DNA of 64,000 nucleotides from Salmonella phage vB_SenS-3: sequence record OR896822.1. One strand, written 5' to 3'. Both the position numbers and the translations under genes were made by a program. The notes under the pieces were generated by a model. It was not told the DNA's origin. It searched no databases and saw only the letters and a list, made by a program, of their open reading frames with translations. Numbering within the stretch: the stretch's first letter is position 1; each line of letters begins with the position of its first letter. Positions 14,491 through 23,554 of this stretch are shown piece by piece.

Positions 14491-15105
14491 ATGAGACTAC
14501 CAGACCCATACACGAACCCAGAGCTATCAGGGTTAGGTTTTGAAAGCGTTAACTTAGTAGACAATGACCCTATGATTCGTGATGAATTACCTAATGGTAA
14601 AGTTAGGGAGGTTAAGGTGTCTGCTCAATATTGGGGTATTAATATCTCTTATCCAGAATTATTCCCAGATGAATTTGCTAAATTAGACTCATTCATTCTA
14701 GATTATAAAAGAACAGGTAGCTATATTGATGTGTTATTACCACAATATGAAGCTTTCCGAGTTCGTGGTGATACTAGTGCTGTAAATATTCCTGCTGGAC
14801 AAAAAGGTTCAACAGTTATTATGGACACTAAAGGTACACTTCGTGGACTGCCTAAACCAGGCGATTTATTTAAATTGTCCAACCATCCAAAAGTGTATAA
14901 AATCACTTCTATCAACACAGCAGGAAATACTTGGAATATAAGTGTTTATCCTGATCTATTCATTACTACTACGGGTAGTGAGAAACCGGTATTTAATGGT
15001 ATTCTGTTTAGAACTAAATTAATGAACGGAGACAGTTTTGGCTCTACGTTAAATAGTAATGGTACATATACTGGTATTTCACTTTCCTTGAGGGAAAGTC
15101 TATGA
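14491..15105 (+). CDS. distal tail protein (pb9-like)
   Basis: 204-aa ORF immediately after tape measure and before the baseplate hub; size equals T5 pb9. Confidence 0.6.
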   Translation: MRLPDPYTNPELSGLGFESVNLVDNDPMIRDELPNGKVREVKVSAQYWGINISYPELFPDEFAKLDSFILDYKRTGSYIDVLLPQYEAFRVRGDTSAVNIPAGQKGSTVIMDTKGTLRGLPKPGDLFKLSNHPKVYKITSINTAGNTWNISVYPDLFITTTGSEKPVFNGILFRTKLMNGDSFGSTLNSNGTYTGISLSLRESL

Positions 15106-17951
15106 AGAAAATTCTTGACAGTGCAAGAGAGTATTTAAGAACCAATAATAAAATAAAAACTGCATGCCTTATTACTCTTGAATTGCCAAGCTCTACCGGA
15201 TCAAGTTCTGCGTACATTTATCTTACAGACTATTTTAGGGATGTAATTTATAATGGTATTCTTTACACATCTGGTAAAGTTAAGTCTATAACAACACATA
15301 AACAAAATAGAAAACTTTCCATTGGTAGCCTTTCTTTTACTATCACAGGTACTGCTGAAGATGAAGTATTAAAACTAGTCCAAAATGGTGTATCCTTCCT
15401 AGATAGATCCATCTCAATCCATCAAGCGGTTATTGATGAAGAAGGTAACATTCTTACTGTAGATCCAGACACTAATGGTCCTTTACTTTACTTCCGTGGT
15501 AAAATCACTGGTGGTGGTATTAAGGATAACATTGGTACTTCTGGAGTTAGTACATCTGTTATTACATGGAACTGTTCAAACCAATTCTATGACTTTGATA
15601 GAGTAAACGGACGTTTCACAGATGATGCTGACCATAGGGGACTTGAGATTGTTGCTGGCCAATTAGTTCCATCTAATGGTGCTAAACGACCTGAATATCA
15701 AGAGGACTACGGATTCTTCCACGCTAACAAGAGTATTTCTATTCTTGCTAAGTATCAGGTTCAGGAAGAACGTTATAAGTTACAATCTAAGAAAAAGTTA
15801 TTTGGTCTTTCTAGAAGCTATAGCCTAAAGAAATACTATGAGACTGTAACTAAGGAAGTCGATCTTGATTTTAACTTAGCAGCTAAATTCCTTCCAGTAG
15901 TATACGGAGTTCAGAAAATTCCTGGAATCCCAGTATTTGCAGATACTGAACTGCATAACCCTAATATCGTATATGTAGTATACGCTTTCTGTGAGGGTGA
16001 GATTGATGGATTTCTAGATTTCTACTTTAGTGATGTACCAATGATCTGTATTGATCCTAATGATAGTAAGTCTCGTACTTGTTTTGGTACTAAGAAAGTA
16101 GCTGGTGATACCATGCAACGTATTGCTTCTGGTCAACCAAGCTCTGAACCTTCTGTTCATGGACAGGAATATAAGTATAATGATGGTAATGGCGATATCC
16201 GTATCTGGACTTATCATGGTAAGGCTGATCAATCTGCTGCTGATGTTCTAGTTAACATTGCAAAAGAGAAAGGTTTCTATCTACAGAACATGAATGAGAA
16301 TGGACCGGAATACTGGGACTCTCGTTATAAACTGTTAGATACTGCTTATGCTATCGTTCGCTTTACTATTAATGAAAACAGAACAGAAATTCCAGAAGTT
16401 AGTGCTGAAGTTCAAGGTAAGAAGATTAAGATCTATCATTCAGATGGTAGAGTAACTGCTGATAAGACCAGCTTAAATGGTATATGGCAAACTCTGGACT
16501 ACCTAACCTCTGATCGCTACGGTGCTAATATCACTATCGATCAGTTCCCACTCCAGCAACTTATTCAAGAAGCAGCTATTTTGGATATCATTGATGAATC
16601 CTACCAGGTTTCTTGGCAACCCTATTGGAGATACGTTGGATGGACTGATGCTGTAGGAGAGAATAGACAAATAGTTCAAATGAACACTATTCTCGATACC
16701 TCTGAGTCCGTATTTAAAAACGTGCAGGGATTAATAGAGTCTTATGGTGGTGCTATCAACAACTTATCTGGTCAATATAGAATAACTGTTGAGAAGTTCT
16801 CAAACACCCCATTAGAGATTGACTTCTTAGATACCTACGGTGATTTGGAGCTATCAGATACCACAGGTAGAAATAAGTTCAACTCAGTACAAGCCTCCAT
16901 ATTAGATCCTGCATTAAGCTGGAAGACTAACTCCATTACATTCTTTAACTCTATATTTAAGGAACAAGATAAAGGATTAGATAAAAAACTTCAGCTTTCT
17001 TTTGCAAATATCACTAACTACTATACTGCACGTAGCTTTGCAGATAGAGAACTGAAAAAGTCTCGTTACTCACGAACTCTCACATTCTCATTACCATATC
17101 ATTTCATAGGCATTGAGCCTAACGATCCGATTGCTTTTACATATGGTCGTTATGGTTGGAATAAGAAATACTTCCTAGTTGATGAGGTTGAAAACTCTAG
17201 AGAAGGTAAGATTAATATTACACTGCAAGAGTATGGTGAGGATGTATTTATTAACTCCGAGCAGGTTGATAATAGTGGTAACGATATCCCTGATGTTAGT
17301 AATAATGTACTGCCTCCTAGAGACTTTATGTATACACCAACACCGGGTGGACAAGTAGGATCTATTGGTAAGAATGGTGAGTTATCTTGGCTTCCTAGCT
17401 TAACTAATAACGTTGTTTACTACTCCATTGTTCATTCTGGACATGCTGATCCTTACATCGTACAGCAATTAGAAACTAATCCAAATCTACGAATGATCCA
17501 AGAAATTATTGGAGAACCTGCTGGTTTAGCAGTCTTTGAGATTAGAGCTGTAGATATTAATGGTAGACGAAGTTCTCCTGTAACACTATCGGTAGAACTT
17601 AACTCTGCTAAAAACTTAAGCGTCGTTAGTAATTTCAGGGTTACTAATACAGCTTCAGGAGATGCATCGGAGTTTGTAGGACCAGACGTTAAGTTGGCCT
17701 GGGATAGAATTCCAGAAGAAAATATCATTGATGGAATCTTCTACACTCTCGAAATCTACGATAACCTAGATCGTTTATTAAGAAGTGTACGAATTGAAGA
17801 TCAGTATGTCTACGATTATCTACTGATATACAATAAGGCAGACTATGCTCTTCATAACGAGGATGCTCTAGGTATTAATAGGAAGTTACGCTTCCGTATA
17901 AGAGCAGAAGGTGATAATGGCGAGCAATCTGTGGATTGGGCATCTATTTAA
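15102..17951 (+). CDS. baseplate hub / tail tip protein (pb3-like)
   Basis: 949-aa ORF following the distal tail protein; size equals T5 pb3; synteny. Confidence 0.65.
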   Translation: MKKILDSAREYLRTNNKIKTACLITLELPSSTGSSSAYIYLTDYFRDVIYNGILYTSGKVKSITTHKQNRKLSIGSLSFTITGTAEDEVLKLVQNGVSFLDRSISIHQAVIDEEGNILTVDPDTNGPLLYFRGKITGGGIKDNIGTSGVSTSVITWNCSNQFYDFDRVNGRFTDDADHRGLEIVAGQLVPSNGAKRPEYQEDYGFFHANKSISILAKYQVQEERYKLQSKKKLFGLSRSYSLKKYYETVTKEVDLDFNLAAKFLPVVYGVQKIPGIPVFADTELHNPNIVYVVYAFCEGEIDGFLDFYFSDVPMICIDPNDSKSRTCFGTKKVAGDTMQRIASGQPSSEPSVHGQEYKYNDGNGDIRIWTYHGKADQSAADVLVNIAKEKGFYLQNMNENGPEYWDSRYKLLDTAYAIVRFTINENRTEIPEVSAEVQGKKIKIYHSDGRVTADKTSLNGIWQTLDYLTSDRYGANITIDQFPLQQLIQEAAILDIIDESYQVSWQPYWRYVGWTDAVGENRQIVQMNTILDTSESVFKNVQGLIESYGGAINNLSGQYRITVEKFSNTPLEIDFLDTYGDLELSDTTGRNKFNSVQASILDPALSWKTNSITFFNSIFKEQDKGLDKKLQLSFANITNYYTARSFADRELKKSRYSRTLTFSLPYHFIGIEPNDPIAFTYGRYGWNKKYFLVDEVENSREGKINITLQEYGEDVFINSEQVDNSGNDIPDVSNNVLPPRDFMYTPTPGGQVGSIGKNGELSWLPSLTNNVVYYSIVHSGHADPYIVQQLETNPNLRMIQEIIGEPAGLAVFEIRAVDINGRRSSPVTLSVELNSAKNLSVVSNFRVTNTASGDASEFVGPDVKLAWDRIPEENIIDGIFYTLEIYDNLDRLLRSVRIEDQYVYDYLLIYNKADYALHNEDALGINRKLRFRIRAEGDNGEQSVDWASI

Positions 17952-20009
17952 ATGATTTCGAATAATGCACCAGCCAAGATGGTCTTAAATAGTATTATGA
18001 CTGGATATACTATGGCGTATATCCAGCATTCTATCTATACCGACTACGATGTTATCGGTAGATCATTCTGGCTTAAACTTGGCGAAGAAGTGGATAGAAG
18101 AGATTTCACTGGAATCGACACTTTCTTTGTTATGATCAATAACTTAACTCCCTCAACTACCTATCAGGTTCAGGGAGCTTTTTATGACTCAATTATTGAC
18201 TCAGAACTTTTAAATGCAAAAATTGGTATTAACCTCTCTAATGAAACTAACTTTAAAACAAAAGAGAAGCCAATAATTGTTACAGCAAGGTCTGAGTCAG
18301 AACCAGTGGATGTTGGGGTGGGCGCACCGATAGTTGTTGTGGAAACTACTGGTGAAGCAAGTTACTGTACTATTGAGTTAAAAAGTACAGCCACGGAAGA
18401 TAGTCCTTGGACTAAGTATTACATTGGGGCTTTAGGTTCTACTATTAAATTTGGTGGAGTTCCTATCGGAGATTATAAGATCAGAATATCTGGTCAAGTA
18501 ACTATGCCTGATGGTGTTACAGTTGATTCTTCTGGTTACTATGAGTTCCCTAGTATTCTAACTGTAGCTTATAATTTTGTTCCTCCTACTGCACCTATCG
18601 ATATTGTTTTTAAAGCTGCACGAATTGCTGATGGTAAAGAACGATATGATGTTAGAATTGAGTGGGATTGGGAACGCGGTGCTGGTGCTAATGTTCGTGA
18701 GTTCTTGGTTACTTATATAAACTCCGAAGAATACGCTAAGACTGGCTGGGCTAAAGCTCAAAAGATAAACGTGGGGGCTGCTAGAGCTGCAACGATTATA
18801 TCATTCCCCTGGAAAGTTGAACATACCTTTAAGGTTTCATCAATTGCCTGGGGACCAAATAAGCAAGATATAACAGAATCAGCTCCTGTAACATTTATTC
18901 TGAATGAGGATACTCCTCTAGATAACAGTTTTGTCAATGAGACGGGTATTGATGTTAACTATGCCTTTATTAAGGGTAGTATGAAAGATGGGGAAATCTG
19001 GAGACAGACATTCTTAATTGATGCAGCTACTGGTGCTATTAACATTGGTCTGCTCGATGAAGAAGGAAAAGCACCTATTTCTTTCGACCCTATAAATCGT
19101 GTTGTTAACGTTGATGGTAAAGTAATTACTAGAGATATTAATGCTGCGAACTTTATCATGACTAACTTGTCTGGTAAAGATAATCCAGCAATTTACACTC
19201 AAGGTAAATCTTGGGGAGATAATAATTCTGGTATTTGGATGGGTATGGATAATACCTCTGCCAAAGCGAAACTAGACATTGGTAATGCTACACAATGGAT
19301 ACGTTATGATGGTACTACTCTGCGCATCTCTAGTGGTGTAGTAATTGGAACGCCAAATGGTGACGTAGATATTGGAACTGGTTTACAAGGTAAGCAAACA
19401 GTATTTGTTTATAAGTTAGCAACATCTTTACCGGCCAAACCGCTAGAACAAGATTATCCGCCTCCTGGTTGGTCAAAAACTCCACCTAATCGTACAGATA
19501 TGACACAAAATATCTATGCTACTACGGGTACACTTGATCCAGTTACTAACAAACTTCTTGAAGGTACTAGCTGGTCTGATGTGGTTCAGTGGAGTGGTAC
19601 TGAAGGTACTATAGGGCATGATGGACAGCGTGGTCCTGGGATGTACTCCATGGGTATTCCTGGATTAGGTGGTTGGGATGATGGACAGGCTAATGCATTC
19701 TTCCAAAATAACTTTGGAAAACCTCCAGTTAAATACGATGTCTTAACACAATTTAACAGTAATGCTCCACAAACAGCATTTACCCGCCAATGGAACGGGG
19801 GTGGATGGATTAACCCTGCAATGGTTCTTCATGGCAATATGATTGTTAATGGAACTGTTACTGCGGATAAGATTGTGGCAGGAAATGCCTTCTTATCACA
19901 AATCGGTGTTAATATAATCTACGATAGAAATGCTGCGTTATCAGGGAACCCTGAAGCATACTACAAGATGAAGATAGACCTAAATAGTGGGTATATCCAT
20001 ATAAGGTAA
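17952..20009 (+). CDS. tail tip central fibre protein (pb4-like)
   Basis: 685-aa ORF after the hub gene; close to T5 pb4 in size; synteny. Confidence 0.55.
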
Positions 20010-20014
20010 TTATA

Positions 20015-20437
20015 ATGAGTACAGAAAACCGAGTTATTGATATTGTTGTTGATGAGAAAGTACCTTATGGTCTTATCATGCAGTTTATGGATGTTGATGA
20101 CAGTGTATATCTACCAACAGAAGTTCCTGTTAACTTAACCGGATATTCACTCCGAGGAACTATTAAATCTAGTCTAGATGAGAACGCCGAGGTTCTAGCT
20201 AATTTTAAAACTCATATTATTGATGCTACTCAAGGTGCTGCTGCAATTAGTCTTTCCATTGCAGACACTACTAATATTAGTGAAAAAGCATCTAAAGAAC
20301 GTGATAAGTATAACCCAAGACAACGTTTTGCTGGTTATTATGATATCATAATGACTCGTGATGTAATTGGCTCTGAAGTCAATTCTTTCCGTATTATGGA
20401 AGGTAAAGTATACATCAGCGATGGAGTAACTCAATAA
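20015..20437 (+). CDS. tail collar protein (p132-like)
   Basis: 140-aa ORF between pb4-like and fibre genes; same size as T5 p132. Confidence 0.45.
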
Positions 20438-22704
20438 TGGCACTTAAAACTAAAATTATTGTACAGCAGATTATGAACATAGATGACACTACAACTACTG
20501 CTAGTAAATATCCTAAGTACACAGTAGTTTTAGGTACTTCTATTAGTTCTATTACTGCTAGCGAACTAACAGCGGCTGTTGAGGTCTCTGCTGCTTCTGC
20601 TGCGGCAGCAAAAGATTCTGAAATTGCAGCAAAAGAATCTGAAATAAATGCTAAGGACTCTGAGAACCTATCTGCAAATTATGCTAACTCTTCAGAAGCT
20701 TCTGCAACTCAATCTGCTACTTCTGCTACTGAAGCGAAGAGACAAGCTGATTTATCTAAAGATAGTGCTGATGCCTCTGCTATTTCTGCTTCTCAATCTG
20801 CTGCGTCCGCTACTAAAGCTGCAGAATCATCAGCTGCAGCAAAAACTAGTGAGACTAACACTCTAGAATCATCAGCTGCAGCAAAAACTAGTGAGACTAA
20901 TGCAAAAACTAGTGAGACTAATGCAAAAACTAGTGAGACTAATGCAGCAGCATATGCAGCAGCAGCAAAAACTAGCGAGACTAATGCTGCTGATTCCGCT
21001 GCCTCTGCTTCTGACTCCAAAGGATTCAGGGATGAAGCAGAAGCATTCGCTGCACAAGCCTCCACATCAGCATTAGCAGCAAAAAACTCAGAAACTAATA
21101 CAAAGACTAGCGAAATTAACTCAAAAGCTAGTGAAGACGCTGCTAAGCTAGCTCAGCAAGGTGCATCAGATAGCGCGAACACAGCTACGCAAGCGATGAC
21201 CACAATACAGGGTCTTAAGTCCGATGTTGAACAGCTTAAAGCTGACACTCAGACCATTAAAGAAGGTGCGGCGACAGAGATTAGAGCAGCTAAGACGGAG
21301 GCAGTAGGAGCAATTGACACAGCTAAGGTAAACGCAATTGCTGAAATCACCCCGTTAAAACAAGCTGCGGAAGACGCTGCCACCTTAGCTGGACAAAAGG
21401 CAGTAACGGCTACAGAACAGGCTACAGCCGCGGCTGGAAGCGCTACAACCGCAGGAGAACAAGCCGTAGCAGCATCCAGTTCCGCAACTCGAGCTGAGAC
21501 CGCAGCAAACAAAGCTGAACAAACTTTGAGCATATCTTTGTTAAAGGATCAGAACCTTGCAGACTTAAGTGACAAGGTACAGGCTCGTATAAACCTAAGT
21601 GTGGATCGTCTTAAACAGAGCGCTGATAGTTCCCGCATTTATGACCCGACAAACCGCTACAACTTAGTTGTAATGGATACAGGGTCTTGGGGTGTCTATG
21701 ACGATACTAGTAATGTATTTAAACCTTTAGGAGTAGGACAGGGCGGCACGGGAGCTTGGGACGCAGAGGGTGCTCGCAACAACATCGGGGCGCTGTCCAA
21801 AGGTGGTGACACTGCGACCGCCATGATTGCTACTAAACATTCTTATCCTGCTGGCTCAACAGGGCAAATTTTGGGTTGGTCGTGGCGATCAATTGTAGAA
21901 GGCTATGGTATCGGAACGGCGACTGCTGATTTTTACGTAAACCACACAGTAGGAAGCGTCACATATGCCTGCATTAAGCCTACTCGAGTGACCGGTGAAA
22001 GCTGGGAGTATCTTTTTAGCGACTTTGGCGAAATGTCTAATATTAGAAGCCTGATTATTAGTCGTAACACAGGTGCGGCAGGAGAGGCGTCCGGTAACAT
22101 GGAGTTGAGTTATGGGGCGGGGCAGGTGACACAGTACGCCGCTCGTGTAGATTTTTACGATGGAACTGCACGATCTGTTTTAGATACCTACGATGCTACT
22201 CGCTTAACAACTCTCTTACCCTCGGCAGGTGTCATTTGCCGTAGAGGTATTGGTGGTAATTACCAAGCAAATAGCTATTCTTTCTCGTGGGAAAATCCTG
22301 GAGTAGATGTATGGATTGATAGTACTCGTATTGGGCGAGTAACGCTGGATCCTACAAGCGACATTGATTATAAAGAACAGGTTGAGCCATGGGACGGTAA
22401 GAGTGCGTTAAACAATATCAATCAGTTAGAGCTCGTGACGTTTATCTTCAAAGATGATATAAAGCGTCGGGTACGTCGTGGAATCATTGCACAGCAAGCG
22501 GCAACCATAGACCCTGAATACACACACTCAAGCGAGGATAAGGAGGGAAATACAATTCTTTCGCTTGATACTAACGTGCTGTTACTGGATGCGCTTGCTG
22601 CTATCCAGGTGCTAAGCGCCCGTGTCAGTAAATTAGAGTCTTTGTTAGAAGATAAACCAACCACTCTACCTGAAGACCCCGCTCCAAATCAAGACCTTCC
22701 TTAA
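20437..22704 (+). CDS. L-shaped tail fibre protein with C-terminal intramolecular chaperone domain
   Basis: 755 aa; Ala/Ser/Thr-rich shaft with perfect tandem repeats (AKTSETN); C-terminal segment GIIAQQAATIDPEYTHSSEDKEGNTILSLDTNVLLLDALAAIQVLSARVSKLESLL resembles the self-cleaving chaperone domain of T5 pb1 and endosialidases. Confidence 0.7.
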   Translation: MALKTKIIVQQIMNIDDTTTTASKYPKYTVVLGTSISSITASELTAAVEVSAASAAAAKDSEIAAKESEINAKDSENLSANYANSSEASATQSATSATEAKRQADLSKDSADASAISASQSAASATKAAESSAAAKTSETNTLESSAAAKTSETNAKTSETNAKTSETNAAAYAAAAKTSETNAADSAASASDSKGFRDEAEAFAAQASTSALAAKNSETNTKTSEINSKASEDAAKLAQQGASDSANTATQAMTTIQGLKSDVEQLKADTQTIKEGAATEIRAAKTEAVGAIDTAKVNAIAEITPLKQAAEDAATLAGQKAVTATEQATAAAGSATTAGEQAVAASSSATRAETAANKAEQTLSISLLKDQNLADLSDKVQARINLSVDRLKQSADSSRIYDPTNRYNLVVMDTGSWGVYDDTSNVFKPLGVGQGGTGAWDAEGARNNIGALSKGGDTATAMIATKHSYPAGSTGQILGWSWRSIVEGYGIGTATADFYVNHTVGSVTYACIKPTRVTGESWEYLFSDFGEMSNIRSLIISRNTGAAGEASGNMELSYGAGQVTQYAARVDFYDGTARSVLDTYDATRLTTLLPSAGVICRRGIGGNYQANSYSFSWENPGVDVWIDSTRIGRVTLDPTSDIDYKEQVEPWDGKSALNNINQLELVTFIFKDDIKRRVRRGIIAQQAATIDPEYTHSSEDKEGNTILSLDTNVLLLDALAAIQVLSARVSKLESLLEDKPTTLPEDPAPNQDLP
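20824..20990 (+). repeat. perfect tandem DNA repeats inside tail fibre gene
   Basis: 35-nt block gaatcatcagctgcagcaaaaactagtgagactaa occurs twice (20824 and 20866), followed by three exact 21-nt units gcaaaaactagtgagactaat and a degenerate copy. Confidence 0.85.
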
Positions 22705-22712
22705 TCCTAAAA

Positions 22713-22738
22713 TACGCGGCTTCGGCTGCGTATTTTTA
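22713..22738 (+). terminator. rho-independent terminator after tail fibre gene
   Basis: Hairpin TACGCGGC-TTCG-GCTGCGTA (one G-U pair) followed by TTTTT. Confidence 0.75.
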
Positions 22739-22860
22739 TCACTTTTAACTTTACAAAACTTTACATCAGATGCCAGGTAAACTTTTTGTTATGCACTATG
22801 CTTAACTCGTAATATGCGTGTTACATGTGTTTAACAATCAACTCTCAGGAGTGTTTACTA

Positions 22861-23189
22861 TGTCTGACAGGACTCTTTTACCGACCAACATGGGCGGGCT
22901 CGGTGGTGACGGTGTTATGCCTGGTATCGCTGCTTTTAGTGGTGCGCTGATTGATTCCTGGTTAGGTAATGGTGCGGGTGGTCGTGGTGTTGGTGCGGGT
23001 GGTGTGGATGGCGCGGTTTCCGTTGCTAGTACTGCTGCAAACATGCTGACTACTTCACTGGTAAGCGATATCGAATCCATTCAGAGCGGACTGAACAATC
23101 TGGGCCTAACTGTTGTACAGGGTCAGGGTACAACCAATCTGGCAATCGCTAACACAGGCGCAATGAACCTGAACGCTATTACCCAATAG
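22861..23189 (+). CDS. glycine-rich hypothetical protein (moron-like); in-frame TAG at 23187-23189 followed by a 65-codon open extension
   Basis: ATG at 22861 with AGGAG RBS 8 nt upstream; GC-rich Gly/Ala-rich ORF (GGLGGDGV...GNGAGGRGVGAGGVDG); frame stays open after the TAG to TGA at 23385-23387. Confidence 0.45.
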
Positions 23190-23334
23190 AATACTCAAAA
23201 CCTGTTGGCGTCTGTCCAGGGTTTTGTAGAGCTGAACACTGCGATCACCTCCAGCACTAGTACCATCGCTGGCGCGATCTCTGCTCAGTCGTTTGATCAA
23301 CAGCGTACAGCATTCCAGGAGCAACTTGCCACTG

Positions 23335-23358
23335 AAAAAAAAAAAAAAAAAAAAAAAA
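23335..23358 (+). repeat. 24-nt poly(A) homopolymer tract
   Basis: Uninterrupted run of 24 A, in frame within the open extension downstream of the TAG (would encode Lys8). Confidence 0.9.
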
Positions 23359-23554
23359 TATTGCTGCGAAACAAGCCTGAGTCTTGATTATCCTAGCAAC
23401 GCAATGCATGTTCTACTGTATTAACAGTTCGCTGATTCTTAGGCTGTTCTTATGTACAATATGAAAACACAAAATGCAAGAGGTTCGTTTTGCACCCTCT
23501 CAGAAAAAAAATTAATAAAATAAAGGAATTAGTAAAACAACTCCTTACTAAATA

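What the first reader, a model, noticed from the sequence alone, without database searches (positions are those of the whole stretch)
20824..20990. Perfect tandem DNA repeats in the tail-fibre shaft, and a short (755 aa) fibre with C-terminal chaperone domain
A 35-nt block is duplicated and three exact 21-nt units follow, encoding (AKTSETN)n within an Ala/Ser/Thr-rich shaft. Perfect identity implies very recent expansion or contraction by slippage or recombination, so fibre length may be variable in the population. The fibre is roughly half the length I recall for T5 pb1 (about 1400 aa) yet retains the C-terminal intramolecular chaperone-like segment, suggesting modular shaft shortening.
Basis: partly seen in the sequence, partly recalled or inferred. 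Interest (0 to 1): 0.5.

Follow-up and report, generated by a model that had tools for sequence, protein, structure and literature searches.

The report
Heptad repeats in phage tail fibre
The perfect 21-base repeats are real and encode whole seven-residue turns of the helical rod of a Salmonella T5-like phage's side tail fibre, so copies can be gained or lost without breaking the rod; the gene, its repeats and such length changes are already on record, so the finding is correct but ordinary.

Summary
Observation confirmed. Three identical 21-nt units lie at 20881-20943. A 36-nt block is duplicated at 20823-20858 and 20865-20900. Both sit inside ORF 20437-22704, the 755-aa L-shaped tail fibre of an Epseptimavirus; the protein is identical to that of Salmonella phage vB_SenS-3.

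The units encode AKTSETN, exactly one heptad of a Ser/Ala-core helical shaft (aa ~41-367). Period-7 signal over aa 54-214 has z = 16.6.

Relatives at 96-98% identity carry the same five heptads, but their units differ by synonymous changes. So the perfection reflects recent homogenisation in the S147 sublineage, not a new array.

Copy number is nearly fixed: all 40 listed GenBank matches span 2266-2268 nt. It is still mutable:
- a near-identical 734-aa variant lacks exactly 21 aa;
- other Epseptimavirus fibres carry 14-, 21- or 35-aa arrays;
- published evolution of phage Φ37, which has the same allele by residue numbering, gave a recurrent 28-aa insertion at position 164 and a 42-aa deletion.

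The offsets between the four 20-nt cores (21/42/63/84 nt) include the natural 21-aa deletion and the size of the Φ37 28-aa insertion.

The C-terminal S74 chaperone is confirmed (Thr640-Ser641...Lys646). The short length comes mostly from a compact, horizontally shared distal/receptor-binding module (273 vs 416 aa) plus a 112-aa in-phase coil deletion, not from repeat loss. Already known; low interest.

The parts
20015..20437 (+). LtfC / p132 collar protein gene (140 aa), to which the fibre N-terminus attaches
   Evidence: Pfam PF23926 LtfC, E 4.8e-15. PHROG 'collar tail protein for L-shaped tail fibre attachment'. Synteny pb3 15102-17951, pb4 17952-20009.
20437..22704 (+). ltf gene: 755-aa L-shaped (lateral) tail fibre protein, S147/H8 allele type
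   Evidence: ORF. 99.9% identical to the annotated 'L-shaped tail fiber' of Salmonella phage vB_SenS-3 and to the same gene in S147 and others. Protein exactly equals WWD11098.1. aa 1-230 match DT57C LtfA, 8hqz_d, domain E 4.8e-42.
20437..20553 (+). N-terminal collar-insertion segment (aa 1-39)
   Evidence: Near-identical to DT57C LtfA residues 1-39, which form beta-strands woven into the LtfC ring (PMC10713586).
20554..21540 (+). Ala/Ser/Thr-rich alpha-helical shaft (aa 40-368), inferred to be a trimeric coiled coil
   Evidence: In DT57C LtfA the helix starts at T40 and forms a three-helix coiled coil. AF2 helices 41-191, 198-285 and 293-367, at low-to-moderate pLDDT. Period-7 residue/phase statistic z = 16.6 for aa 54-214, with Ser in 19 of 23 heptads at phase 1 and Ala/Ser/Thr in 22 of 23 at phase 5.
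20823..20900 (+). Duplicated 36-nt block (20823-20858 and 20865-20900, offset 42 nt = 2 heptads), encoding ESSAAAKTSETN twice
   Evidence: Exact match search with extension. TRF period-42 row.
20881..20943 (+). Three identical 21-nt units GCAAAAACTAGTGAGACTAAT, encoding (AKTSETN)3 at aa 149-169
   Evidence: Annotated as repeat_region in phage vaffelhjerte.
20839..20985 (+). Whole heptad array, seven heptads aa 135-183: AKTSETN-TLESSAA-(AKTSETN)3-AAAYAAA-AKTSETN. Four exact 20-nt cores at 20839, 20881, 20902 and 20923, and a one-mismatch unit at 20965.
   Evidence: Core offsets of 21/42/63/84 nt include the natural 21-aa deletion (P0133) and the size of the published 28-aa insertion at position 164 in Φ37.
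21541..22356 (+). Distal part and compact receptor-binding module (aa 369-640). It includes the residues mutated in Φ37 host-range evolution (468, 469, 491, 556).
   Evidence: Entirely different from the 983-aa Epseptimavirus type. From about aa 450 it is shared with non-T5 fibres P0002 and P0033. H468, S469 and G491 match the Φ37 numbering. No solved homologue by sequence. AF2 confidence below 50.
22357..22701 (+). Peptidase S74 intramolecular chaperone domain (aa 641-755). Predicted autocleavage at Thr640|Ser641, with Lys646 as the general base.
   Evidence: PF13884, E 6.6e-10. Aligns to the DT57C LtfA C-terminus, E 1.9e-12. TSDIDYK matches T5 Thr1263-Ser1264...Lys1269 (PMC4690869). D642 and K646 are invariant and S641 is at least 90% conserved in alignment A2.
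22709..22736 (+). Intrinsic-terminator-like hairpin (12 bp stem, TTCG loop, T-run) five bases after the ltf stop codon
   Evidence: sequence. This is a consensus match only.

Best explanation
The repeats are in-frame coding repeats in the helical shaft of the lateral (L-shaped) tail fibre of a T5-like Salmonella phage (Epseptimavirus, S147/vB_SenS-3 type).

Each 21-nt unit encodes one heptad (AKTSETN) of a Ser/Ala-core alpha-helix. By homology with DT57C LtfA, that helix forms a trimeric coiled coil starting at Thr40.

Because the DNA repeat length equals the structural repeat length, misalignment between the four exact 20-nt cores adds or removes whole heptads (7, 14, 21 or 28 aa). The misalignment could be replication slippage or unequal recombination. 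Such changes alter rod length by roughly 1 nm per heptad without breaking the helical register, so the variants remain functional.

The same logic extends to the whole shaft. Ser-Ala codon pairs (TCTGCT) recur at a fixed heptad phase and provide in-phase microhomology for larger deletions.

The present perfect identity comes from recent homogenisation (gene conversion, or contraction followed by re-expansion) in the S147 sublineage, at unchanged copy number.

The fibre is short mainly because it carries a compact receptor-binding module followed by a self-cleaving S74 chaperone, plus one 112-aa (16-heptad) coil deletion.

Shown: the repeats, reading frame, gene identity, heptad periodicity, variation among relatives and the chaperone motif.
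Inferred: trimeric coiled-coil structure of the array, the slippage/conversion mechanism, and tolerance of length changes.
For: - Repeats and frame.
- Gene identity and synteny.
- Helix and coiled coil: the DT57C LtfA helix from T40 is a three-helix coiled coil (PMC10713586), and window aa 1-230 align to that chain. AF2 puts aa 135-183 inside a continuous helix 41-191. Period-7 z = 16.6 and no signal at periods 5, 6, 8-11.
- Homogenisation: H8, beppo, bastian, SE19 and ende have the same 35-aa array, but units 2 and 3 carry synonymous AAC and AGC. The window and vaffelhjerte are perfect. Window versus beppo differs at 20850, 20853, 20860, 20922 and 20934.
- Heptad-quantised variation: the array is 14 aa in Shivani, 21 aa in phagemcphageface, and 35 aa in BD13 and SE7. 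Length variants of the 983-aa type are 990, 976 and 955 aa.
- Anchor spacing: the distance from SISSITA to KGFRDEAE takes nine different values (160 to 279), all equal to 6 mod 7.
- Large in-phase deletions: the 112-aa deletion equals 16x7, with TCTGCT at both junctions. A second, different 112-aa deletion is in P0043.
- Near-identical natural variant: P0133 lacks exactly AKTSETNTLESSAAAKTSETN.
- Core offsets: 21/42/63/84 nt.
- Experimental: Φ37 Ltf has the same residues at 56, 97, 468, 469 and 491. It acquired ΔA56-A97 (42 aa) and a recurrent 28-aa insertion at position 164 (PMC12541327). The ΔA56-A97 junctions in the window are 14/15-identical direct repeats 126 nt apart.
Against: - The coiled-coil state of the array is not directly observed. 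The cryo-EM model of LtfA covers only the start of the helix. The AF2 model is a monomer with pLDDT about 55-68 in this region.
- The core residues are small and polar (Ser/Ala), not canonical hydrophobics, and a simple hydrophobic Fourier analysis was weak.
- Not every indel is heptad-quantised. Phage polluks has a 94-aa deletion (3 mod 7), and P0034 has an extra 3-aa duplication late in the coil.
- The anchor-distance agreement is inflated by shared ancestry and by the repeat unit itself being 7 aa.
- The sequence of the Φ37 28-aa insertion was not available (no supplements held). Its origin from the 84-nt offset is arithmetic inference.
- Copy number is nearly invariant in sequenced isolates, so the mutation rate or the tolerance may be lower than implied.
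Confidence: 0.85

Rival explanations
1. Adaptive length tuning. The array is a selected 'ruler' hot-spot whose copy number is adjusted to match fibre reach to O-antigen length or surface geometry. It would then be more than a neutral, tolerated slippage site.
For: - Three differently composed arrays (window, BD13, SE7) all total 35 aa, and copy number is held constant across the 755-aa clade despite homogenisation. Both fit stabilising selection on length.
- In Φ37 the 28-aa insertion arose in different biological replicates in viscous medium. The variant carrying it, which also has H468Y, showed altered infectivity on gtrABC-ON and opvAB-ON cells (PMC12541327).
Against: - Gene conversion alone preserves length without any selection.
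- The Φ37 insertion co-occurred with H468Y, and its separate effect is not reported in the text available.
- Natural fibres with 14- to 35-aa arrays, and a 94-aa deletion removing the whole array (polluks), are all from viable isolates.
Confidence: 0.25
2. Assembly or sequencing artefact. The perfect copies would result from mis-assembly of a short repeat, so the copy number in the window would be unreliable.
For: Short perfect repeats can be collapsed or expanded by assemblers. One related record (MET_P1-88) spans 2266 rather than 2268 nt and is annotated as fragments.
Against: - The array is only 63 nt of perfect repeat, shorter than ordinary reads.
- The identical structure and gene length recur in at least 25 independently sequenced genomes at 99% identity or more.
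- More divergent relatives keep the same unit count with distinguishing synonymous changes.
Confidence: 0.02
3. The AKTSETN units are not coiled coil. They would instead be a repeated ligand-binding or beta-structured motif, for example a glycan-contacting repeat, whose number sets avidity.
For: - The core positions are polar or small (Ser/Ala), which is atypical for classical coiled coils.
- The AF2 confidence is modest.
- Similar Ser/Ala/Thr-rich stretches occur in many unrelated phage fibres (PHROG hits).
Against: - The array lies in an uninterrupted 23-heptad frame that begins in the segment homologous to the experimentally observed LtfA three-helix bundle.
- AF2 predicts a continuous helix through it.
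- Host-range mutations in the same allele map to aa 468-556, not to the array.
Confidence: 0.05
4. On/off contingency locus. Repeat slippage would switch fibre expression by frameshifting.
For: Tandem repeats in surface-protein genes often act this way in bacteria (general knowledge).
Against: - The unit length is 21 nt, a multiple of three, so slippage cannot frameshift.
- All observed variants are in frame.
- The overlapping alternative-frame ORFs are low-complexity mirror images.
Confidence: 0.01

Closest known systems
Ltf of Salmonella T5-like phage Φ37 (PMC12541327) and annotated L-shaped tail fibres of Epseptimavirus S147, S113, SE24, H8 and vB_SenS-3
   Same: - Same allele type: 755 aa, with an exact protein match to vB_SenS-3 and 96.5-99.9% nucleotide identity to the others.
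- The Φ37 residue numbers A56, A97, H468, S469 and G491 coincide with the window protein.
- Φ37 uses BtuB, with the fibre binding O-antigen.
- Indels of 42 and 28 aa in the shaft were seen experimentally.
   Different: Nothing structural. The published work does not describe the heptad or tandem-repeat basis of the indels in the text available. The Φ37 sequence itself was not available to me.
Bacteriophage T5 pb1 (L-shaped tail fibre, 1396 aa; PDB 4UW7/4UW8)
   Same: - Same genomic position and a homologous N-terminal attachment region (phrog_24369, aa 3-110).
- C-terminal S74 chaperone with a Thr-Ser...Lys autocleavage site.
   Different: - 755 versus 1396 aa.
- No sequence similarity detected in the middle and receptor-binding parts. 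The PDB sequence search (which would include the T5 pb1 chains 4UW7/4UW8) returned only DT57C LtfA and a weak T7 gp17 hit.
- T5 binds polymannose O-antigen; the ligand here is a Salmonella O-antigen by inference from Φ37.
DT57C LtfA (PDB 8HQZ chain d; PMC10713586, PMC4728585)
   Same: - The first ~100 residues are nearly identical, with the helix starting at T40 as a three-helix coiled coil.
- The S74 C-terminus aligns.
- LtfA also contains a tandem amino-acid repeat (a 19-aa motif) whose copy number changed in a laboratory mutant.
   Different: - LtfA is 1076 aa and carries a second fibre, LtfB, as a branch. Here there is a single fibre gene.
- The DT57C repeat is a 19-aa motif in the distal part, not a heptad in the coil.
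983-aa Epseptimavirus fibre type (EPS7, BD13, SE7, Shivani)
   Same: Shares aa 1-115, the array and its flanks (the 321-nt query spanning them is about 90-96% identical at nucleotide level), and the same AKTSETN units.
   Different: - It has an extra 112-aa coil segment.
- It lacks the TTIQGLKSDVEQLK... coil module.
- It has a different, larger distal/receptor-binding module (416 vs 273 aa).
Endosialidase-type intramolecular chaperone (Peptidase S74; K1F endoNF)
   Same: Pfam PF13884 match above threshold, and a Ser-x4-Lys motif.
   Different: It is attached here to a small, unrelated receptor-binding domain rather than to an endosialidase. Cleavage is not demonstrated.

Membership tests
T5-type L-shaped/lateral tail fibre (pb1 / LtfA) | N-terminal segment homologous to pb1/LtfA that inserts into the LtfC (p132) collar | tested here: met
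   aa 1-230 match 8hqz_d LtfA, domain E 4.8e-42, with residues 1-100 nearly identical. phrog_5481 and phrog_24369 tail fibre hits at the N-terminus.
T5-type L-shaped/lateral tail fibre (pb1 / LtfA) | Gene order pb3 - pb4 - ltfC(p132) - ltf in a T5-like genome | tested here: met
   ORFs of 949, 685, 140 and 755 aa, with Pfam PB4 domains and LtfC. The same order is annotated in S114, BD13 and Shivani.
T5-type L-shaped/lateral tail fibre (pb1 / LtfA) | Long helix from about residue 40 forming a homotrimeric coiled coil | tested here: inconclusive
   Helix predicted for 41-367 (AF2 monomer, pLDDT about 50-75) and strong heptad periodicity. Trimer formation rests on homology to DT57C and was not modelled.
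T5-type L-shaped/lateral tail fibre (pb1 / LtfA) | Reversible binding to O-antigen that accelerates adsorption | not testable with these tools
   Inferred from Φ37, which has the same allele by numbering.
Peptidase S74 intramolecular chaperone | Profile match to PF13884 above the gathering threshold | tested here: met
   39.6 bits against a cut-off of 22, E 6.6e-10, aa 641-695.
Peptidase S74 intramolecular chaperone | Catalytic Ser with Lys five residues downstream, preceded by Thr (T5: Thr1263-Ser1264...Lys1269) | tested here: met
   Thr640-Ser641-Asp-Ile-Asp-Tyr-Lys646. D642 and K646 are invariant and S641 is at least 90% conserved across 28 fibres. The T5 residues are from PMC4690869.
Peptidase S74 intramolecular chaperone | Autoproteolytic release of the C-terminal domain after trimer folding | not testable with these tools
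   Needs protein chemistry, for example SDS-PAGE of virions or an S641A mutant.
Alpha-helical coiled coil with heptad repeats | Seven-residue periodicity with conserved core (a/d) positions spaced 3 and 4 residues apart | tested here: met
   Over aa 54-214, period 7 gives z = 16.6 while periods 5, 6 and 8-11 give z below 0. Phase 1 is Ser in 19 of 23 heptads and phase 5 is Ala/Ser/Thr in 22 of 23. The core is small and polar rather than hydrophobic.
Phase-variable contingency locus (on/off switching by repeat slippage) | Repeat unit length not divisible by three, so slippage shifts the reading frame | tested here: not met
   The unit is 21 nt, and all natural variants are in frame.

The most novel reading that the evidence does not exclude
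The heptad array, together with the in-phase TCTGCT Ser-Ala codon periodicity of the whole shaft, may be an evolved 'length-tuning' device. It would let T5-like phages change fibre reach in steps of about 1 nm to track changes in O-antigen chain length or modification, such as OpvAB or Wzz variation, as a second axis of host adaptation alongside receptor-binding-domain substitutions.
Probability: 0.2. Interest if true: 0.45.

Novelty: already known. Interest (0 to 1): 0.2.

Why it matters
Lateral tail fibres set the host range of T5-like Salmonella phages that are candidates for biocontrol and therapy.

Three points are practically useful:
- The shaft tolerates, and naturally generates, whole-heptad insertions and deletions. 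This helps when engineering fibres, for example in choosing junctions that keep the heptad phase.
- It also helps when interpreting indels seen in experimental evolution.
- It is a warning not to over-read length differences between isolates.

None of this opens a new biological question. The gene is annotated, the repeats are flagged in GenBank records, and in-frame shaft indels in this allele have been published.

Tried and rejected
- Population copy-number survey: metagenome scans for two tandem units, exact and degenerate, returned nothing. IMG/VR gave one exact locus and only 17 protein-related loci. So the survey rests on GenBank phages and protein clusters.
- Fold search: the accepted AF2 job gave mean pLDDT 52.7, and below 50 across the receptor-binding region. 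I did not run a fold search because the matches would be meaningless.
- PDB sequence search of the distal region: only chance-level hits.
- Fourier analysis of hydrophobic or charged residues: uninformative, because the core is Ser/Ala. I replaced it with a residue-by-phase statistic.
- Supplements of PMC12541327: not held, so the inserted 28-aa sequence could not be checked.
- Alternative-frame ORFs over the repeat: rejected as low-complexity shadows.
- A DNA-level regulatory role: dropped, because promoter-like matches in the region were at the shuffle expectation and none lies in the array.
- One literature search failed on a term that was too short, and one returned nothing.
Full report
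**1. The observation**

- TRF reports a period-21 array at 20881-20946 with 3.1 copies, 100% identity and score 132. It also reports a looser period-42 array at 20812-20987.
- Exact string search puts GCAAAAACTAGTGAGACTAAT at 20881, 20902 and 20923.
- The 35-nt block lies at 20824-20858 and 20866-20900, and extends to 36 nt.
- The 20-nt core GCAAAAACTAGTGAGACTAA occurs four times, at 20839, 20881, 20902 and 20923. A one-mismatch unit follows at 20965.
- All lie in frame in ORF 20437-22704 (755 aa). They give AKTSETN at residues 135, 149, 156, 163 and 177.
- The shaft (aa 40-368) is 56% Ala+Ser+Thr.

This is far beyond chance. It recurs in independently sequenced genomes, so it is real.

**2. 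What the gene is**

The window is a T5-like Salmonella phage of the genus Epseptimavirus.
- The ORF is 99.9% identical to the annotated L-shaped tail fibre gene of vB_SenS-3, and to the same gene in vaffelhjerte, gmork and S147. It is 96.5-98.6% identical to ende, SE19, bastian, beppo and H8.
- The protein is an exact match to WWD11098.1 of vB_SenS-3.
- Upstream are pb3, pb4 (four Pfam PB4 domains) and the LtfC/p132 collar protein.
- Residues 1-230 match DT57C LtfA in the cryo-EM entry 8HQZ (domain E 4.8e-42). The C-terminus (aa 630-737) matches the LtfA C-terminus.
- Pfam Peptidase_S74 hits aa 641-695.
- The motif Thr640-Ser641-x4-Lys646 reproduces T5 Thr1263-Ser1264...Lys1269, the autocleavage site described for pb1 (PMC4690869). 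D642 and K646 are invariant, and S641 nearly so, among 28 diverse fibres.
- A terminator-like hairpin follows the stop codon at 22709-22736.

**3. Structure of the repeat region**

- In DT57C, the LtfA helix starts at T40 and three copies form a coiled coil projecting from the collar (PMC10713586). The window protein has the same residues there.
- An AF2 monomer model has low overall confidence (mean pLDDT 52.7), as expected for an obligate trimer. It predicts helices 41-191, 198-285 and 293-367, which puts the array (aa 135-183) inside one continuous helix.
- Written in sevens from residue 54, 23 consecutive heptads have Ser at phase 1 (19 of 23) and Ala/Ser/Thr at phase 5 (22 of 23).
- A residue-by-phase statistic gives z = 16.6 at period 7 and nothing at periods 5, 6 and 8-11. 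The first eleven heptads, which precede the array, already show the pattern, so the signal does not come from the repeats alone.
- Each 21-nt unit is therefore exactly one structural heptad, and the 42-nt offset is two.

**4. How old is the perfection?**

Within the 755-aa clade, H8, beppo, bastian, SE19 and ende carry the same five-heptad block (AKTSETN, xLESSAA, AKTSETN x3). Their units differ by synonymous changes: GAA versus GAG in the first unit, AAC in the second of the tandem three, and AGC in the third. The window and vaffelhjerte are perfect (positions).

The amino-acid sequence and the copy number are therefore older than the clade. Only the nucleotide identity is recent. Intragenic gene conversion, or a contraction followed by re-expansion, in the S147 sublineage explains this best (inference).

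**5. Is length variable?**

Mostly not in this allele.
- All 40 listed GenBank matches span 2266-2268 nt.
- 13 of the 15 listed members of the 90% cluster are 755 aa.

But the array is mutable.
- P0133 comes from a 111-kb contig in a Citrobacter portucalensis assembly. It shares the window-specific residues M13, V50 and K101 and lacks exactly AKTSETNTLESSAAAKTSETN (734 aa). That equals the 63-nt offset between the cores at 20839 and 20902.
- In the 983-aa fibre type the same array is 14 aa (Shivani), 21 aa (phagemcphageface) or 35 aa (BD13; SE7 with five AKTSETN). Length variants of 990, 976 and 955 aa exist.
- Across fibre types, the distance from the helix-start anchor SISSITA to the KGFRDEAE motif takes nine values between 160 and 279, all equal to 6 mod 7. 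A second group shares 3 mod 7. These comparisons are not phylogenetically independent.

**6. Published experimental evidence**

In the T5-like phage Φ37 evolving on S. Typhimurium, ltf acquired three kinds of change (PMC12541327):
- substitutions between residues 468 and 556 (H468Y, S469Y/F, G491A);
- a deletion ΔA56-A97;
- a 28-aa insertion at position 164, found in isolates from different replicates.

The window protein has A56, A97, H468, S469 and G491 at exactly those numbers, whereas other fibre types do not. K164 lies in the third AKTSETN unit. Φ37 therefore carries this allele type.

Forty-two and 28 aa are six and four heptads. Eighty-four nt is the offset between the outermost perfect cores. 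The ΔA56-A97 junctions in the window are TCTGCTGCTTCTGCT and TCTGCTACTTCTGCT (14 of 15 identical), 126 nt apart. I could not see the inserted sequence itself, so the link to the array is inferred from position and size.

**7. Why the fibre is short**

T5 pb1 has 1396 aa. T5-like fibres in the protein search range from 596 to 1316 aa. The table compares the window with the nearest longer type, the 983-aa type.

| Part | Window (aa) | 983-aa type (aa) |
|---|---|---|
| Coil | 333 | 398 |
| Distal / receptor-binding part | 273 | 416 |
| Chaperone | 115 | 135 |

- The coil difference is a 112-aa (16-heptad) deletion after DSADASA, with TCTGCT on both junctions. It is partly offset by a different TTIQGLKSDVEQLK... 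module that is shared with other fibre types.
- DT57C LtfA retains the deleted segment, so the window state is derived.
- The C-terminal region from about aa 450, including the chaperone, is shared with fibres that have unrelated N-termini: P0002 (854 aa, next to a T7-type terminase) and P0033 (748 aa). It is therefore a horizontally exchanged module.
- Repeat contraction is not the cause of the short length.

**8. Exceptions**

- Phage polluks lacks 94 aa, which is 3 mod 7, and so loses the whole array. Its junctions are Ser-Ala codon pairs from different heptad phases. This would create a 4-4-3 (hendecad-like) spacing, a discontinuity that coiled coils generally tolerate (general knowledge; inference).
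- P0034 has a 3-aa duplication late in the coil.

**9. Verdict**

However:
- the gene is a well-populated annotated allele;
- the repeats are already flagged as repeat_region in GenBank;
- tandem-repeat copy changes are known in T5-like fibres (PMC4728585);
- in-frame shaft indels in this very allele are published.

What this analysis adds is the match between the DNA unit and the structural heptad, and the core-offset arithmetic. It is ordinary biology, modestly useful for fibre engineering.

Noticed in passing
window 22860-23387 (+), including 23187-23189 and 23335-23358: The ORF downstream of ltf (109 aa, Gly-rich N-terminus) matches only the first 101 of 234 positions of PHROG 9288, of unknown function (E 3.5e-17). 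Its TAG stop is in the same frame as the next ORF (23205-23387), which runs through a perfect A24 homopolymer encoding Lys8. It is either a decaying gene or a read-through/slippage site. The 330-nt CDS is annotated alike in vaffelhjerte, beppo, ende and PMBT36.
   Followed up: partly
window 21790-22701 (aa ~452-755); L030 6001-8565: The receptor-binding module plus S74 chaperone is shared (44-46% full-length identity in alignment A2, concentrated in this C-terminal part) with fibres that have unrelated N-termini. P0002 (854 aa) sits just after a T7-type terminase on a 23-kb Logan contig, and P0033 is 748 aa. This indicates exchange of the module between siphophage and podophage-like genomes.
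   Followed up: partly
P0043 (Escherichia coli phage Wa28, 871 aa) versus the 983-aa type: A second, independent deletion of exactly 112 aa (16 heptads) lies at a different place in the coil (AVEASAAS|ATESTNQ). It is the same size as the deletion that distinguishes the window allele.
   Followed up: no
P0130 (Salmonella phage polluks, 661 aa); corresponds to window aa 93-186: A near-identical relative has lost 94 aa, including the whole AKTSETN array. The loss is not a multiple of seven, and the junctions are Ser-Ala codon pairs (TCTGCT / TCCGCT) from different heptad phases.
   Followed up: partly
L023 (Salmonella phage SE7) array, and window 20839-20943 for comparison: SE7 has five AKTSETN units whose codon variants alternate (GAA..AAT, GAG..AAC, GAA..AAT, GAG..AAC, GAG..AAT). 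This suggests a 42-nt two-unit duplication or conversion that replaced the xLESSAA heptad while keeping the total at 35 aa.
   Followed up: no
GenBank MW411578.1 / NC_103484.1 (SP_Thor) and PV804860.1 (MET_P1-88), matches to window 20437-22704: In SP_Thor the features annotated under the ltf match are 'DNA N6-adenine methyltransferase' and 'rIIB protein', apparently a shifted or wrong annotation. In MET_P1-88 the match spans 2266 nt and is annotated as several hypothetical proteins, suggesting a frameshift or sequencing error.
   Followed up: no
window aa 170-266 (nt 20944-21234): There is weak similarity (E 0.008) to T7 tail fibre gp17 residues 182-278, centred on the shared KGFRDEA motif. 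The motif recurs one to three times in T5-like fibres, at fixed heptad phase.
   Followed up: no
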